Source: Dictyostelium discoideum (taxonomy: Eukaryota). Taken from it: a stretch of 64,000 nt of DNA. The number at the start of each line of letters is the position of its first letter. Position 1 is the stretch's first letter. The DNA lies in contig CM000154.2 in the NCBI GenBank assembly GCA_000004695.1, positions 3,168,001-3,232,000 on the forward strand, read 5' to 3'. The position numbers and the translations under genes are program-made. The notes under the pieces are model-generated. The model saw only the letters and a program-made list of their open reading frames with translations. It searched no databases and was not told the origin of the DNA. Of the stretch, positions 25,439 through 38,288 are shown piece after piece.

Positions 25439-26440
25439 ATGAAAGAAATATTTTTTAAAGAAAAAGAAAAATTTTTAAAAGATGGATATATAATTTTAAA
25501 AGATTTTTTTAATGAAAATGAATTTGAACCAATTAAAAAAGAAATTGAAAATGAAACCAATTCATTAATTAAAAGATTATATAATAGTGGTTTAATAAAG
25601 ACAGATTATTCATTAAATAATAAATTATCAGTTGATATGAAATTAATTGAAGCAGAAAAAGAATATATAGGAACATCAATATTATTACATACAGAATTTG
25701 CATCAAGATTAAAGAAATCATTTGGTGAACAATTATTTAGTAACACAAAACTATTAGATTTAGTTGAAATTTTATTAGATACCAATGAAATATCAGGTCA
25801 TCCAGAATGGAATCTAAGATCAAAAACACCAAATAATAAATATTTTAATGTACCATGGCATCAGGATGCGGCCTATTTAGAAATTGGGTCAGAAGATTTC
25901 CAACAAATTACAGTTTGGATACCATTAGTTAACATAAATGAAATAAATGGACCATTACAAATTATACCTAATTCAAATAATGAAAAATTATTAAATCATA
26001 AATTACAAAAAACATTAGATTCAAATTTCAAAGATTCATGGTATTTAGAAATTGAAGAAAATGAAATTGAAAAATATTTTAGTAAAGATTATAAATCAAA
26101 AATTAAAACATGTTCACCATTATCACTTGGATCAATTGTAGTATTTACAAATAAAACTGTACATTGTAGTTTACCAAATTTATCAAATTCAGTTAGATGG
26201 ACAATTGATATTAGATTCTTAAAATCAAATGATCCAACTGGTTTTAATCCAATTGATCAAAAAGATATTGAAAATAAAATGAAATTAAGATCTAAAACTG
26301 AAAATCAAATATCAATTGATTATTCAATTTGGTCACCACAATCAACATCAATTTTAATGTCAAATAATAATGATAATAATGAAAATAATAATTTAAAAAA
26401 TTATTCAATAGAAGGACCATGGTTTAATAGATGGAAATAA
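25439..26440 (+). CDS. Phytanoyl-CoA dioxygenase (PhyH) family 2OG-Fe(II) oxygenase, 333 aa
   Basis: FNVPWHQDAAYLE (HxD iron motif) and a distal His in TVHCSLPN...RWTIDIRF. Confidence 0.75.
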   Translation: MKEIFFKEKEKFLKDGYIILKDFFNENEFEPIKKEIENETNSLIKRLYNSGLIKTDYSLNNKLSVDMKLIEAEKEYIGTSILLHTEFASRLKKSFGEQLFSNTKLLDLVEILLDTNEISGHPEWNLRSKTPNNKYFNVPWHQDAAYLEIGSEDFQQITVWIPLVNINEINGPLQIIPNSNNEKLLNHKLQKTLDSNFKDSWYLEIEENEIEKYFSKDYKSKIKTCSPLSLGSIVVFTNKTVHCSLPNLSNSVRWTIDIRFLKSNDPTGFNPIDQKDIENKMKLRSKTENQISIDYSIWSPQSTSILMSNNNDNNENNNLKNYSIEGPWFNRWK

Positions 26441-26480
26441 AAATATAAAAAGGTAAAAAAAATACTACTTTATTAATAAA

Positions 26481-27377
26481 TTATTTAACTGGATCTTTGT
26501 CACTACCTTTAGAACCAGACTTTATTTTTGTGCAACTTGAGAAACTTTCTGTTGTTAACATTCCACATTTACTTTTTATAAATATATAAAGAAAGAAAGG
26601 AGTGAGGAATAGGAAATTGACTTTGAAAAGTATTGGAGCTAATGAGAGTGAGGAAACAATGAACCAAGATCTATCTAAATGAGGATTAACTAAAAAACTT
26701 GGAAATGGAATTTTGTTTAAAGATTTCTTTACCTTTTCATCATAAGTTTGTTTGAAATGTTGTTGATTTGCAATTGATAAAATACCACTAGATATACTTA
26801 CAGCTTGAGTGTATGCAAATCTGTATATTTTGTTATTTGATATTGGTTTTCTGAATCTTGATGTTAGCACCACATACAAATTAATGCTAATGAATATGGA
26901 GCTGCAAATTCAAATAAAAGTTTCTCTCTTACACGCTCTTTTTCAATGGAATCACTACTCTTAAAATTACCATAAAAGAATCTACTAAAGAAAAGGATAT
27001 TATTATTTTTATTATTATATTTTTTATTATTATTATTATTAATACTTTCTCTGTCTTGTCTAGTTTCAAATGGTGTTTTAAAAACAAAAGGATTTTTTAA
27101 AATTTGTTGTTGATTAATAATATTCAATTTTGAAGAAATCTTTTTCATTATATTTTTTATAACCACATTCCATTGCTAATCAATCACTATTATTAATTTC
27201 ATTTTCTTTATTTAAATCTTTAGAAGGTTTGAAACCAAAAAACCTATTATTATTTAACAAACTTCTATTTTTTGTTATTAATTTATTGTTTAAAAATATC
27301 ATAAAATTTTTTATTTTTGAAATCTGCATTTTTTTAATTATATATAAAGGGTGTATATTTCTTTTGTTGGCAAGCAA
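26481..27377 (-). pseudogene. Deletion-decayed copy of the gene at 36528..38144; N- and C-terminal parts are retained and about 300 central codons are missing
   Basis: Three ORF pieces (27180..27377, 26864..27166, 26481..26879) are collinear with the N-terminus (MQISKIKN...), an internal part ([18 protein letters not shown]) and the C-terminus ([46 protein letters not shown]) of the 538-aa paralogue. Frames are broken between the pieces. Confidence 0.7.
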
Positions 27378-28020
27378 GAAAATAAAAAAAATGATGAAAA
27401 TTAAAATAATAAAAAACTAAAAAGAATGTATACGTGGATTAAAATTACAAAAAAATAAAAATAAAAATAAGAATAATAATTTTAACAAGAATTTCTTACA
27501 AAAATTAAAAAATATAAAATACTAAAAAAATACAATATATGTTCAAATCAAAAATTAAGACATTTTCACCATTATCAATTGGATCCAGTAGTATTAACAA
27601 CAAAAAAAAATATGATATTATCATAATCATAGTGACAAAAATAGAATACTTCCAAATTTGTAAATAAAATTAAATCCAAAATAAACACACTTAAAAATTT
27701 AAGTTTATTTTTTATTTTTGGTGTTTTATTAATAAAAGTTTTTGCTAAACATTTTTATTTATTTCTAATTTATTTTTAATTTTTTTTTTTTTTTAATTTT
27801 TTTTTTTTTTTTTTTTTAATAAAATTATTTTTTTTTGAAATTCATGATCTCCCTATTTTTTTTTTTTTCCTTCATTCCATTTTTGTAAATTTTATATATT
27901 ATATAGAAAATAAATTAGGATAATAAAAAAAAAAAATTTTAATACATAGAAACTTTTTTTCACTATTTTTTTTTTTTTATTTTATTAAATTTCAAAAGTT
28001 ACGGAATTTGACACACATCA

Positions 28021-36242: not shown

Positions 36243-36440
36243 ATTGTAGTTTACCAAATTTATCAAATTCAGTTAGAGGGACAATTGATACTAGATTATT
36301 AAAATCAAATAATCCAACCGGTTTTAATCAAATTAATCAAAAAAGATATTGAAAATAAAATGAAATTAAGATCTAAAATCCAAAATCAAATATCAATTGA
36401 TTATTCAATTTGGTCACCACCCAACCAATACCAATTTTAA
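36243..36440 (+). pseudogene. Duplicated 3' fragment of the PhyH gene (copy of 26159..26350)
   Basis: acattgtagtttaccaaatttatcaaattcagttaga.ggacaattgata... aligns at about 90% identity with 26159 onward. Confidence 0.8.
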
Positions 36441-36527
36441 TGTCAAATAATAATAATAATTTAAATTTTAAAAAATTATTCAATAGATATTGAAATAAAA
36501 AAAAAACAAAAAAACTATTTTATTAAA

Positions 36528-38144
36528 CTACCCAACTACACCTACGTCAACACCTGAATAACTAATTATTATTCTTGTGCAACTTGATAAACTTTCATTT
36601 ATTTTACTGCCATATAGATTTCTAAAAAATCTATAAAGAACCAAAGGAGTGAGGAATAGGAAATTGACTTTGAAAAGTATTGGAGCTAATGAGAGTGAGG
36701 AAACAATGAACCAAGATCTATCTAAATGAGGATTAACTAAAAAACTTGGAAATGGAATTTTGTTTAAAATTTTCTTTACCTTTTCATCATAAGTTTGTTT
36801 GAAATGATGTTGATTTGCAATTGATAAAATACCACTAGATATACTTACAGCTTGAGTGTATGCCAATCTATATATTTTGTTATTTGATATTGGTTTTCTA
36901 AATCTTGATGTTAGCACCATAAAAAAATATCCAAATAAATATCCACCTGCAAATTCAAGTAAAAGTTTCTCTCTTACACGCTCTTTTTCAATGTAATCAC
37001 TACTCTTATAAAGAGCAGAAATGAATCTACTAATGATGACTATATCAGATTTTTTTGTACAATATTTTGAATATTCTGCTGTACCACGATCTGATGGTCC
37101 ATTTAAATAGTTTAATTGTTGAGGTAATTCAATTGGTGGTAAATTATTAGCTTGTCTATATTTAATTGTAAGTTTAATGATTAATTTATAGAATGCAGCT
37201 GGATCAATACTATAGTTTGTAACTGCATAGTATTTAAATGGATTTGATATATTATTTGATTTTCTGCCTACTCTTTCAACACGTTTATACCATGATGGAT
37301 ATTGATTCGGATCGGTTGAAGGGGAATCAATACTACCACATTGATTATGTTTCATTAAATAGTCTATACAATATTGGTATATACCACTTTCAATTAATTT
37401 TGAACTTACAATTGCATGTTCACCAAATGTTTTGAATATAAAATGATATGCATCCTTATCACTAAGTTGATAAATGATTTTCTTTGAAATTAAATTATAA
37501 TCTTCTTTTGTTAAACGACAATATACTGAATTATATAATACTGGTACTTCATCAATTAACTGAGCTGGACATTTATAATTAAAATCATAACTTGTGAGTT
37601 CATAAAAAAAAAGTGCTATTGACATAAAATAAATAATTCTTAAAGTTTTAGAATCTTTTTTAATAAATTCTTCTTCTTTTTTAGTATTATTATTATTATT
37701 ATTATTATTATTATTATTATTATTATTATTATTATTATTATTATTATTATTATCTTTATTATCATTATTATTATAATTATTATTTTTATTATTATTATCA
37801 TCATTATTATTTTTATTATTATTATTAAGACTTTCTAAATCTTGTTTAGTTTCAAATGGTGTTTTAAAAATAAAAGGATTTTTTAAAATTTGTTGTTCAT
37901 TATTAATATTTAATTTTGAATCTTCTTTTTCATTAAATTTTTTAAAACCAGATTCCATTGATAACGAATCACTATTGTTATTTTCGTTTTTTTTTTCTTT
38001 TTCTTTTTCTTTATTTAAATCTTTAGTAGGTTTGAAACCAAATGATCTATAATATAAACCACTATTTTTTGATATTAATTTATTGTTGAAAAATCTACTA
38101 AGATTTTTTATTTTTGAAATCTGCATTTTTTTAATTATCACCAA
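36528..38144 (-). CDS. Uncharacterised membrane protein of 538 aa; intact member of a local paralogous family
   Basis: Continuous ORF with TM segment [21 protein letters not shown]. Motifs shared with the 38289..39908 paralogue: [32 protein letters not shown]. Confidence 0.65.
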
Positions 38145-38288
38145 AAGGGTGTATGTGTGTTGTTGTTGAAATGAAAAAAAAACTAAAAAAAAAATATGAA
38201 AAAAAAAAAAAAATAAAAAAAAAATGCATTATTTTTTTATTTTTTTATTTTTTATTTTATTAAATAATAGTTTATTATTTTTATTTTT

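What the first reader, a model, noticed from the sequence alone, without database searches (positions are those of the whole stretch)
26159..38160. Segmental duplication with reciprocal decay of its two copies
About 1.2 kb at 26159-27360 (3' end of the PhyH gene plus the adjacent minus-strand gene) recurs at 36243-38160. In the 26 kb copy the PhyH gene is whole and the minus-strand gene has lost about 300 central codons and its frame. In the 36 kb copy the minus-strand gene is whole (538 aa) and only a 200-bp PhyH tail survives. This is a clean sub-/non-functionalisation outcome.
Basis: seen in the sequence. Interest (0 to 1): 0.65.

Follow-up and report, generated by a model that had tools for sequence, protein, structure and literature searches.

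The report
Old tandem duplication split by rrpA insertion
The repeat is real, but it is an ordinary old tandem duplication of a fast-evolving orphan gene plus the last third of its neighbour, and its two copies lie 10 kb apart in the laboratory Dictyostelium strain only because a young copy of the RNA-dependent RNA polymerase gene rrpB (now rrpA) was pasted between them.

Summary
Window 26161-27370 recurs at 36241-38168 (BLASTN E=0, about 90% identity in ungapped unique sequence).

The "reciprocal decay" reading does not hold. The window is D. discoideum AX4 chromosome 5. In three sister lineages the two copies lie head to tail, about 2.1 kb apart: PhyH – copy A – PhyH fragment – copy B – older paralog – S28 peptidase. 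Each AX4 copy is orthologous to the matching copy there. D. dimigraforme, D. firmibasis and D. citrinum lack the duplication.

- **PhyH tail:** it was never shown to be a whole gene. It begins at the same point, about codon 219, in every lineage where the junction is readable.
- **10 kb gap:** it is an 8.6 kb copy of the rrpB locus (rrpA plus a dead tgr fragment), inserted into that PhyH fragment. The rest of the fragment sits at 27545-27619.
- **Copy A:** it is truly dead in AX4 (TGA, +1 and +2 frameshifts, 681 bp deletion). It is intact in one sister lineage and broken differently in two others.

Verdict: ordinary partial duplication with loss of one copy. The origin of rrpA is the more interesting by-product.

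The parts
25439..26440 (+). Intact PhyH (phytanoyl-CoA dioxygenase family) gene, DDB_G0289743. Its last third (26093-26440) is the parent of the duplicated PhyH fragment.
   Evidence: Pfam PhyH E=4e-18. The protein sequence is identical to XP_636091 of D. discoideum AX4. dN/dS against sister lineages is 0.20-0.34.
26481..27329 (-). Copy A of the orphan gene, a pseudogene in AX4. The ATG is kept at 27329-27327. Lesions: TGA at 27180-27182, +1 near 27138, a 681-bp (227-codon) deletion with its junction near 26994-27000, and +2 at 26871-26872.
   Evidence: Alignment to the intact ortholog L005_A (519 aa). ORF fragments. tblastn pieces in different frames. Orthology to the copy A of sister lineages from diagnostic sites and tree.
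27330..27544 (.). Upstream flank of copy A, containing the unresolved junction of the tandem duplication. It is conserved among the A units of all lineages. It has no significant similarity to either the copy B upstream region or the PhyH 5' part.
   Evidence: Multiple alignment. Smith-Waterman scores fall within the shuffle range.
27545..27619 (+). First piece of the duplicated PhyH fragment (equivalent to 26093-26156), cut off from the rest by the insertion.
   Evidence: 86% identity over 64 nt to 26093-26156. It is contiguous with the 36241 piece in L001 and L006. It translates to KSKIKTFSPLSIGS against KSKIKTCSPLSLGS in PhyH.
27620..36240 (+). 8.6-kb duplicative insertion copied from the rrpB locus. 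It is absent from all seven related loci examined.
   Evidence: Contiguous homology of window 27624-36246 to L011 18813-10133 at 93-98%. Empty sites in L001, L005 and L006. No hits from this interval in L001-L003 or L005-L008. No terminal repeats.
28021..35356 (+). rrpA (DDB_G0289659), encoding a helicase + RdRP protein of about 2417 aa with one short intron.
   Evidence: Pfam DEAD/ResIII/Helicase_C and RdRP, E=1.9e-139. In-silico StyI/ClaI fragments of 1841 and 2887 bp match the published rrpA sizes of 1840 and 2888 bp (PMC3661229 Table 2). Gene model in L004.
35632..36240 (-). Dead 3' fragment of a tgr (IPT/TIG, Ig_TgrO1) family gene, about 200 codons with a frameshift near 36075-36093. It was copied together with rrpB.
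   Evidence: Protein hits at 68-79% identity to tgr-family fragments. 91% nt identity to tgr paralogs in L010. It is adjacent and convergent to rrpB in L011 and lies inside the contiguous homology. Frame change seen.
36241..36490 (+). Second piece of the duplicated PhyH fragment (equivalent to 26161-26440). It carries +1 and +2 frameshifts and a deletion over the stop region. Several of these lesions are shared with sister lineages.
   Evidence: 93.8% ungapped identity. Two tblastn pieces in different frames. The shared substitutions and the 3' deletion appear in the B units of AX4, L005, L006 and L001.
36528..38126 (-). Copy B of the orphan gene, intact at 532 aa. It contains an (AAT)n poly-Asn tract at 37678-37830.
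   Evidence: ORF. Orthologs of 535 aa (L005) and 549 aa (L001). No Pfam domain. dN/dS is about 1.0-1.2 against orthologs.
38289..39884 (-). Older tandem paralog of the same family, 531 aa, about 40% aa identity to copy B over the core. It is the only family member present in D. firmibasis and D. citrinum.
   Evidence: tblastn. Family alignment A1.

Best explanation
The locus records three successive events; it is not a functional device.

1. **Partial tandem duplication (shown).** In an ancestor of the D. discoideum species complex, a unit of about 2.1 kb was duplicated head to tail. This happened after the split from D. dimigraforme. The unit held the last third of PhyH, the whole neighbouring minus-strand orphan gene and its short upstream region. 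The result was PhyH(whole) – copy A – PhyH fragment – copy B – older paralog – S28 peptidase. Both orphan-gene copies were complete. That the PhyH fragment was truncated from birth is inferred by parsimony.

2. **Insertion of the rrpB-locus copy (shown).** In the AX4/NC4 lineage only, an 8.6-kb copy of the rrpB locus was pasted into the dead PhyH fragment. It carried the full 5' intergenic region, the polymerase gene and an adjoining dead tgr fragment. This created rrpA and pushed the two duplicate units 10 kb apart. The junctions show 2 bp of microhomology on one side and about 19 bp of AT-rich ambiguous or filler sequence on the other. Between 4 and 9 bp of target were lost, and there is no target-site duplication. 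This points to end joining or template switching at a break, not to transposition (inferred).

3. **Decay of copy A (shown).** Copy A decayed in AX4 through a nonsense codon, two frameshifts and a 681-bp deletion whose one end lies in the (AAT)n tract. Copy B stayed intact. The same copy broke independently in two sister lineages and is still intact in a third, so it is simply the dispensable duplicate.
For: **Duplication.** BLASTN gives E=0 and 5e-110 with DUST on, with 88-90% ungapped identity.

**Tandem arrangement and orthology.**
- L001, L005 and L006 show PhyH – A – PhyH tail – B – paralog – S28 with no polymerase gene.
- Window A matches L005 A at 92% and window B matches L005 B at 90.8%. 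Cross-copy matches are 80-83%.
- 107 diagnostic sites class AX4_A as A-type and AX4_B as B-type almost throughout.
- The C-terminal NJ tree separates an A clade from a B clade.
- dS between A and B is 0.13-0.14, against 0.04-0.09 between orthologs.

**Absence in outgroups.** L002, L007 and L008 each have a single PhyH hit and no second copy.

**Insertion.**
- Window 27619 and 36241 are adjacent in L001 and L006, and the two flanks are contiguous in the parental PhyH gene.
- Window 27624-36246 is colinear with L011 18813-10133.
- L011 carries rrpB by restriction-fragment sizes (2780/2939 bp against the published 2779/2941) and the window carries rrpA (1841/2887 against 1840/2888) (PMC3661229).
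- The rrpB locus is syntenic with L009 in another lineage.
- Site patterns are rrpA=rrpB 171, rrpB=L009 67 and rrpA=L009 47.
- There are no terminal repeats.

**Decay.** The lesion list against the intact L005_A is.
Against: - The exact duplication junction (27330-27544) cannot be resolved in AT-rich sequence. "Born truncated" therefore rests on parsimony, meaning the same start of the PhyH fragment in the lineages where it is readable. It does not rest on a readable breakpoint.
- L003 has three units whose two full copies cluster together. In the central region L001_A groups with L001_B. Gene conversion or further unequal crossing-over has therefore blurred parts of the history.
- Whether the sister lineages carry a second rrpA/B-type gene elsewhere could not be checked. 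The protein searches were exhausted, and the one RdRP search returned only one close hit.
- Gene conversion between rrpA and rrpB could make their duplication look younger than it is.
- Annotation pipelines call a spliced 197-aa product over copy A. A residual truncated product is not formally excluded.
Confidence: 0.85

Rival explanations
1. One reading: a two-gene block (PhyH plus the minus-strand gene) was copied to a site 10 kb away, and the two copies then lost complementary genes (reciprocal decay or subfunctionalisation).
For: In AX4 alone the pattern looks complementary. PhyH is whole and the neighbour is dead at 26 kb. The neighbour is whole and only a PhyH remnant is left at 36 kb.
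Against: - The copies are adjacent in L001, L005 and L006.
- The 10-kb spacer is a later insertion whose ends match the rrpB locus.
- The PhyH fragment begins at the same place in the lineages where it is readable, and no PhyH 5' sequence is detectable next to it.
- L005 keeps both copies of the neighbour intact.
Confidence: 0.04
2. The arrangement with rrpA between the copies is ancestral, and the sister lineages lost the 8.6 kb by deletion.
For: Only one lineage (AX4-type, in two assemblies) carries it. With unrooted presence/absence data alone, the direction is not given.
Against: - The deletion would have had to restore exactly a sequence colinear with the parental PhyH gene (26093-26440). 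It would also have had to do so in several lineages.
- The interval's ends coincide with the ends of homology to the rrpB locus.
- rrpA and rrpB are closer to each other than either is to the ortholog in L009 (171 against 67 and 47 sites).
- The outgroups D. dimigraforme, D. firmibasis and D. citrinum also lack it.
Confidence: 0.03
3. The high similarity of the two copies reflects ongoing gene conversion between much older paralogs, not a comparatively recent duplication.
For: - Identity along the copies is very uneven: 70.8% in the C-terminal tail against 97.8% in the next 277 bp.
- Synonymous divergence in that tract is about three times lower than elsewhere.
- AX4_A carries B-type states at 27116-27225.
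- Regional trees disagree.
Against: - The non-genic PhyH fragment and the intergenic sequence are duplicated too. That requires a physical duplication of the block.
- The A and B types are stable across three lineages at most of the 107 diagnostic sites.
- The conserved tract is nearly invariant in all eight copies of four lineages, not only within AX4. This fits constraint, or old conversion, better than conversion specific to AX4.
Confidence: 0.08

Closest known systems
Partial or chimeric tandem gene duplicates, in which the duplicated segment ends inside a neighbouring gene. They have been described as common among young duplicates in C. elegans and Drosophila surveys (my own recollection of the literature, not checked here).
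   Same: The units lie head to tail. One complete gene is duplicated. A 3' fragment of the neighbouring gene is created at the junction. One copy later becomes a pseudogene.
   Different: Here the array was afterwards split by an unrelated 8.6-kb insertion, so in the reference genome it looks like a dispersed duplication. Other lineages show further rounds of duplication or conversion (L003).
Duplication-degeneration-complementation and reciprocal gene loss after duplication (Force/Lynch models, and post-WGD yeasts; my own recollection, not checked here).
   Same: In AX4 the two blocks superficially retain different genes.
   Different: Those models need two initially complete copies of each gene and complementary losses. 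Here PhyH was duplicated only in part, and only one gene ever had two complete copies.
The rrpA/rrpB paralog pair of D. discoideum (DDB_G0289659 and DDB_G0291249). The proteins are 94% identical (PMC3661229).
   Same: The spacer between the two duplicate units carries rrpA. Its donor locus carries rrpB. Both identifications rest on the restriction fragments published for the two genes.
   Different: The papers I read treat the two as paralogs and say nothing about their genomic origin. Here rrpA is shown to be the derived copy. It was inserted with its flanks into a dead PhyH fragment and is missing at this site from all sister lineages examined.
Interspersed segmental duplications or templated insertions made by end joining or replication template switching at a double-strand break (general knowledge).
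   Same: A copy-paste event with the donor retained. Short microhomology at one junction, ambiguous or filler bases at the other, a small loss of target sequence, and no target-site duplication or terminal repeats.
   Different: The mechanism is inferred from the junctions only. The left junction lies in low-complexity sequence and cannot be read to the base.

Membership tests
Reciprocal decay / complementary loss after duplication of a two-gene block | Both genes were duplicated as complete copies | tested here: not met
   The PhyH-derived sequence next to copy B starts at about codon 219 (window 27545, equivalent to 26093) in AX4, L001 and L006. In L005 the start is partly deleted. No significant similarity to the PhyH 5' part lies upstream of it.
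Reciprocal decay / complementary loss after duplication of a two-gene block | Each block lost a different gene after the duplication | tested here: not met
   Only the orphan gene ever had two complete copies. L005 still has both intact, at 519 and 535 aa. Copy A was lost by different lesions in AX4, L006 and L001.
Subfunctionalisation (DDC) | Partition of ancestral expression or function between two retained copies | not testable with these tools
   No expression data are available here. In AX4 one copy is simply dead.
Partial tandem duplication followed by nonfunctionalisation | Units adjacent and head to tail where no later rearrangement has intervened | tested here: met
   L001, L005 and L006 have the two units directly adjacent with a period of about 2.1 kb.
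Partial tandem duplication followed by nonfunctionalisation | Copy-by-copy orthology across lineages, and absence in outgroups | tested here: met
   Identities of 92% and 90.8% for orthologous copies against 80-83% for paralogous ones. 107 diagnostic sites. Separate A and B clades. One copy in D. dimigraforme and none of this type in D. firmibasis or D. citrinum.
Partial tandem duplication followed by nonfunctionalisation | Disabling lesions in one copy relative to an intact ortholog | tested here: met
   TGA at 27180-27182, +1 near 27138, a 681-bp deletion removing the conserved core, and +2 at 26871-26872, all relative to L005_A.
Duplicative insertion of a chromosomal segment (copy-paste, break repair) | The donor is retained elsewhere in the same genome, and the homology ends at the insertion boundaries | tested here: met
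   Window 27624-36246 matches L011 18813-10133 without interruption. The empty-site boundaries are 27619/27620 and 36240/36241.
Duplicative insertion of a chromosomal segment (copy-paste, break repair) | Junctions with microhomology or filler and no target-site duplication | tested here: inconclusive
   Right junction: 2 bp (AC) of perfect microhomology, and 5 of 6 bases if an imperfect match is allowed. Left junction: about 19 bp of AT-rich sequence that matches neither side cleanly. Between 4 and 9 bp of target were lost.
Transposable-element insertion | Target-site duplication, terminal direct or inverted repeats, element-encoded genes | tested here: not met
   No TSD. No significant terminal repeats. 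The content is a host gene plus a host gene fragment, with host flanks.
rrpA (DDB_G0289659) | Published StyI/ClaI fragments detected by the rrpA/rrpB and lox/rox probes (1840 and 2888 bp for rrpA; 2779 and 2941 bp for rrpB) | tested here: met
   Window: 1841 and 2887 bp. L011: 2780 and 2939 bp. Probe sequences and expected sizes are from PMC3661229.

The most novel reading that the evidence does not exclude
rrpA is one of the two near-identical helicase-RdRP genes of the laboratory D. discoideum lineage. On this reading it is a very young gene, born after that lineage separated from its closest sequenced relatives, by pasting an 8.6-kb copy of the rrpB locus into a dead gene fragment. Sister lineages would then have one rrpA/B-type gene where AX2/AX4 has two. 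RNAi results obtained with rrpA in laboratory strains might not transfer to the rest of the species complex.

A secondary point: coding (AAT)n tracts act as deletion endpoints. Two independent copy-A deletions end in the same poly-Asn tract.
Probability: 0.65. Interest if true: 0.45.

Novelty: new member of a known kind. Interest (0 to 1): 0.3.

Why it matters
As stated, the finding would have been a textbook example of complementary loss after a segmental duplication. It is not one, so it should not be cited as such.

What remains useful is a fully resolved three-step history of a locus in a model genome.
- It shows how a later insertion can make an old tandem duplication look like a dispersed one, and can create a false "duplication boundary".
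- It identifies rrpA as the derived, recently inserted copy of rrpB, with exact breakpoints. People working on Dictyostelium RNAi, or comparing lineages of the species complex, can test this directly by PCR across the empty site.
- It flags a taxon-restricted gene family with dN/dS near 1 that keeps duplicating and dying next to PhyH.

Tried and rejected
1. **Function of the orphan family.**
   - The AlphaFold2 model built from the 5-sequence alignment had mean pLDDT 40, so no fold search was run.
   - Pfam finds nothing.
   - A profile search of 1.84 billion representative proteins found only four proteins. Two of them are from Dictyostelium assemblies and the source of the other two was not checked.
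   - Function stays unknown.

2. **Word-indexed protein searches.**
   - These were swamped by low-complexity words. The copy B query returned 3 hits and the RdRP query returned 2, without the AX4 proteins themselves.
   - The rrpB locus was reached only indirectly, through the tgr fragment.

3. **First candidate for the source of the tgr fragment.** The tgr cluster around DDB_G0291458 (L010) is 91% identical but is not next to rrpB. It was rejected as the donor once L011 was found.

4. **AX4-specific gene conversion as the cause of the 97.8% tract.** Rejected, because the tract is nearly invariant in all eight copies of four lineages. Only 3 diagnostic sites fall in it.

5. **Exact junction of the tandem duplication.** Local alignments of 27371-27545 against the copy B upstream region and against the PhyH 5' part score no better than shuffles.

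6. **Transposon signatures.** No TSD or terminal repeats. The only tRNA gene in the window is 4 kb away, at 40186-40260.

7. **Asymmetric rate of copy A against copy B.** Using L003 or D. dimigraforme as outgroup, there is no overall difference in dN.

8. **Literature.** The papers read give the rrpA/rrpB identities and probes but say nothing on genomic origin.

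
Full report
**1. What is there**

The window is AT-rich Dictyostelium DNA. The PhyH protein encoded at 25439-26440 is identical to XP_636091 (DDB_G0289743), and the S28 peptidase at 40495-42036 is identical to XP_636095, both of D. discoideum AX4. A second AX4-type assembly (L004) matches the window at 99.9% over 11.7 kb.

Self-comparison confirms the reported repeat.
- 26161-27023 matches 36241-37068 at 84.3% over 866 columns (E=0).
- 27000-27426 matches 37786-38222 at 79.3% over 449 columns (E=5e-110). DUST masking was on for both.
- In ungapped columns identity is 90.3% and 88.3%.

The gene content is as follows.
- The 26-kb block holds the 3' 280 bp of an intact PhyH gene plus a broken minus-strand gene.
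- The 36-kb block holds a PhyH remnant (36241-36490, with frameshifts) plus an intact 532-aa minus-strand gene (36528-38126).
- A 531-aa paralog, about 40% identical over the core, follows at 38289-39884.

**2. The copies were born adjacent**

I fetched syntenic loci from other assemblies through the proteins.
- L005 and L006 are labelled D. discoideum but are about 6% diverged from AX4 at synonymous sites.
- L001 and L003 are labelled D. cf. discoideum.
- L002 is D. dimigraforme, L007 is D. firmibasis and L008 is D. citrinum.

In L001, L005 and L006 the order is FUSC_2 gene – PhyH – copy A – PhyH fragment – copy B – older paralog – S28 peptidase. The period is about 2.1 kb and nothing lies between the units.

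Orthology runs copy by copy.
- Window A matches L005 A at 92% and window B matches L005 B at 90.8%. Cross-copy matches are 80-83%.
- Of 107 sites that separate the A and B types in the sister lineages, AX4_A is A-type and AX4_B is B-type almost throughout.
- An NJ tree of the C-terminal region gives clean A and B clades.
- dS between A and B is 0.13-0.14. Between orthologs it is 0.04 (L005) to 0.085 (L001).

The outgroups lack this duplication. D. dimigraforme has one gene of this type. D. firmibasis and D. citrinum have only the older paralog type. None of the three has an extra PhyH fragment.

The duplication is therefore a tandem event. It is older than the splits within the D. discoideum complex and younger than the split from D. 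dimigraforme.

**3. The PhyH "tail"**

In L001 and L006 the PhyH-derived sequence between the two units is continuous. It corresponds to window 26093-26440. In AX4 the same fragment is in two pieces, 27545-27619 and 36241-36490.

Several of its lesions are shared by AX4, L005, L006 and L001: two substitutions and the deletion over the stop codon. It was therefore already a dead fragment in their common ancestor.

Upstream of it there is no detectable PhyH 5' sequence. The simplest reading is that the duplicated segment began inside PhyH, so the fragment is a junction product. There was never a second whole PhyH to decay. This step is inference by parsimony, because the junction itself (27330-27544) is unreadable AT-rich sequence.

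**4. What separates the copies in AX4**

Relative to L001 and L006, AX4 has 8621 extra bases, 27620-36240.

The interval contains a helicase + RdRP gene (28021-35356). It also contains about 200 codons of the 3' end of a tgr/IPT-TIG family gene on the other strand, with a frameshift.

The polymerase gene is rrpA.
- The StyI/ClaI fragments that contain the published probes are 1841 and 2887 bp here. They match rrpA (1840, 2888) and not rrpB (2779, 2941) (PMC3661229).

The donor is the rrpB locus.
- Following the tgr fragment led to L011 in the AX4-type assembly. There a 230-aa tgr fragment lies convergent to a 2403-aa gene.
- Window 27624-36246 is colinear with L011 18813-10133 at 95.3%, 98.1% and 92.9% in three BLAST pieces.
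- L011 gives fragments of 2780 and 2939 bp, which are the rrpB sizes.
- The homology ends exactly at the insertion boundaries.
- The rrpB locus is syntenic with L009, the polymerase locus of the L005 strain.

The duplication of the polymerase gene is young.
- In a three-way alignment, 171 sites group rrpA with rrpB, 67 group rrpB with L009 and 47 group rrpA with L009.
- This places the duplication after the AX4 and L005 lineages split, barring gene conversion.

The donor segment starts about 20 bp after the stop codon of the upstream Psf3-like gene. rrpA was therefore born with the full 5' intergenic region.

The junctions show the following.
- On the right, donor CAAC|TTTG and target GTAC|ATTG give CAACATTG, a 2-bp microhomology.
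- On the left there is about 19 bp of AT-rich sequence of unclear origin.
- Between 4 and 9 bp of target were lost, and there is no target-site duplication.
- There are no terminal repeats.

I infer a break-repair or template-switch insertion and not transposition.

**5. Decay of copy A**

Against its intact ortholog L005_A (519 aa), AX4 copy A keeps its ATG (27329-27327). Its lesions are a TGA at 27180-27182, a +1 near 27138, a 681-bp deletion and a +2 at 26871-26872. The deletion removes 227 codons, including the family's most conserved motifs. One end of it lies in the (AAT)n tract.

The sister lineages differ.
- L006 copy A has a different deletion of about 190 bp.
- L001 copy A has lost its N-terminal part, again from the (AAT)n tract.
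- L005 copy A is intact.
- Copy B is intact in AX4, L005 and L001. In L006 it carries a 2-bp gap in a T run, which may be an assembly error.

This is repeated, independent loss of the same redundant copy.

**6. The duplicated gene**

The family has no Pfam domain. It has only four hits among 1.84 billion representative proteins and gives a low-confidence structure model.

dN/dS between intact orthologs is 1.0-1.2. For PhyH it is 0.20-0.34 and for the S28 peptidase 0.02-0.11, over the same lineages. Yet ORFs of more than 500 codons persist in 78% AT DNA across dS of about 0.6, and blocks such as [13 protein letters not shown] and [15 protein letters not shown] are conserved.

I read this as a real but fast-evolving, taxon-restricted gene with mosaic constraint. 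The 97.8% tract coincides with the conserved C-terminal block. It is nearly invariant in all eight copies, so it is not a conversion specific to AX4. Its threefold lower synonymous divergence is unexplained.

**7. Comparison with known kinds, and verdict**

The locus meets the tests for three things: a partial tandem duplication with nonfunctionalisation, a later copy-paste insertion, and rrpA. It fails the defining tests for reciprocal decay or DDC and for a transposon insertion.

None of the mechanisms is new. What is new is the specific history, chiefly that rrpA is the derived, recently inserted copy of rrpB. The papers I could read do not mention this.

Interest is low to moderate. The result corrects an attractive but wrong reading, and it gives a testable statement about a widely used RNAi gene.

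Noticed in passing
window 27620-36240 (rrpA 28021-35356); donor L011 10133-18813: rrpA is a duplicative insertion copied from the rrpB locus. It is absent at this site from seven related loci, and it is closer to rrpB than either is to the ortholog of a sister lineage.
   Followed up: yes
window 35632-36266 (-); L011 10001-10806; L010: A dead 3' fragment of a tgr (IPT/TIG, Ig_TgrO1) kin-recognition-family gene, with a frameshift, was copied along with rrpB. At the rrpB locus the tgr remnant is itself split into several small ORFs.
   Followed up: yes
window 36528-38126 and 38289-39884; alignment A1: The duplicated gene belongs to a family found only in the D. discoideum group of species. It has four hits in 1.84 billion representative proteins, dN/dS near 1, no Pfam domain and long poly-Asn tracts. 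The family has grown stepwise next to PhyH: one copy in D. firmibasis and D. citrinum, two in D. dimigraforme, three in the D. discoideum complex.
   Followed up: partly
window 26596-26872 and 36643-36919: A 277-bp tract is 97.8% identical between the paralogs and nearly invariant in all eight copies of four lineages. Its flanks are 71-85% identical. Synonymous divergence in the tract is about three times lower than in the rest of the gene. Constraint at the nucleotide level and old conversion could not be told apart.
   Followed up: partly
window 27116-27225: AX4 copy A carries B-type bases at 10 of 12 diagnostic sites in this stretch. This could be a short B-to-A gene conversion. It could also be an artefact, because the A type is defined here by only two closely related lineages.
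   Followed up: partly
L003 11677-16384; L006 11209-14550; L001 9983-11147: Other lineages show further turnover of the array. L003 has two full units plus a third fragment, each with a PhyH piece of a different length. Copy A is deleted differently in L006 and in L001. Two of the three copy-A deletions end in the (AAT)n tract.
   Followed up: partly
L004 11043-11710 and 20194 onward (window 26481-27148 and 35632 onward): The annotation of the AX4-type assembly calls a spliced 197-aa gene over the pseudogene. It also calls a 687-aa model that appears to fuse copy B with the tgr fragment. Both look like gene-model artefacts. The exact 532-aa copy B protein is not in the protein collection.
   Followed up: no
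window 40186-40260 (-): A tRNA-Val(AAC) gene lies between the older paralog and the S28 peptidase gene. The stretch is 100% identical over 78 bp in D. dimigraforme.
   Followed up: no
window 20765-21083 and 43328-44227: Arrays of 129-bp (43-aa) repeats lie in genes on both sides of the locus, in opposite orientation. The repeats read FNQKLTPGILP...IGSIPNTVK, and I believe they are FNIP-type. They cross-match many times in the relatives.
   Followed up: no
L005, L006, L009 compared with the window: Assemblies labelled Dictyostelium discoideum (GCA_054859355.1 and GCA_054859385.1) differ from AX4 by dS of about 0.05-0.08 in the PhyH and S28 genes. That looks large for a single species and suggests cryptic species within the complex.
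   Followed up: no
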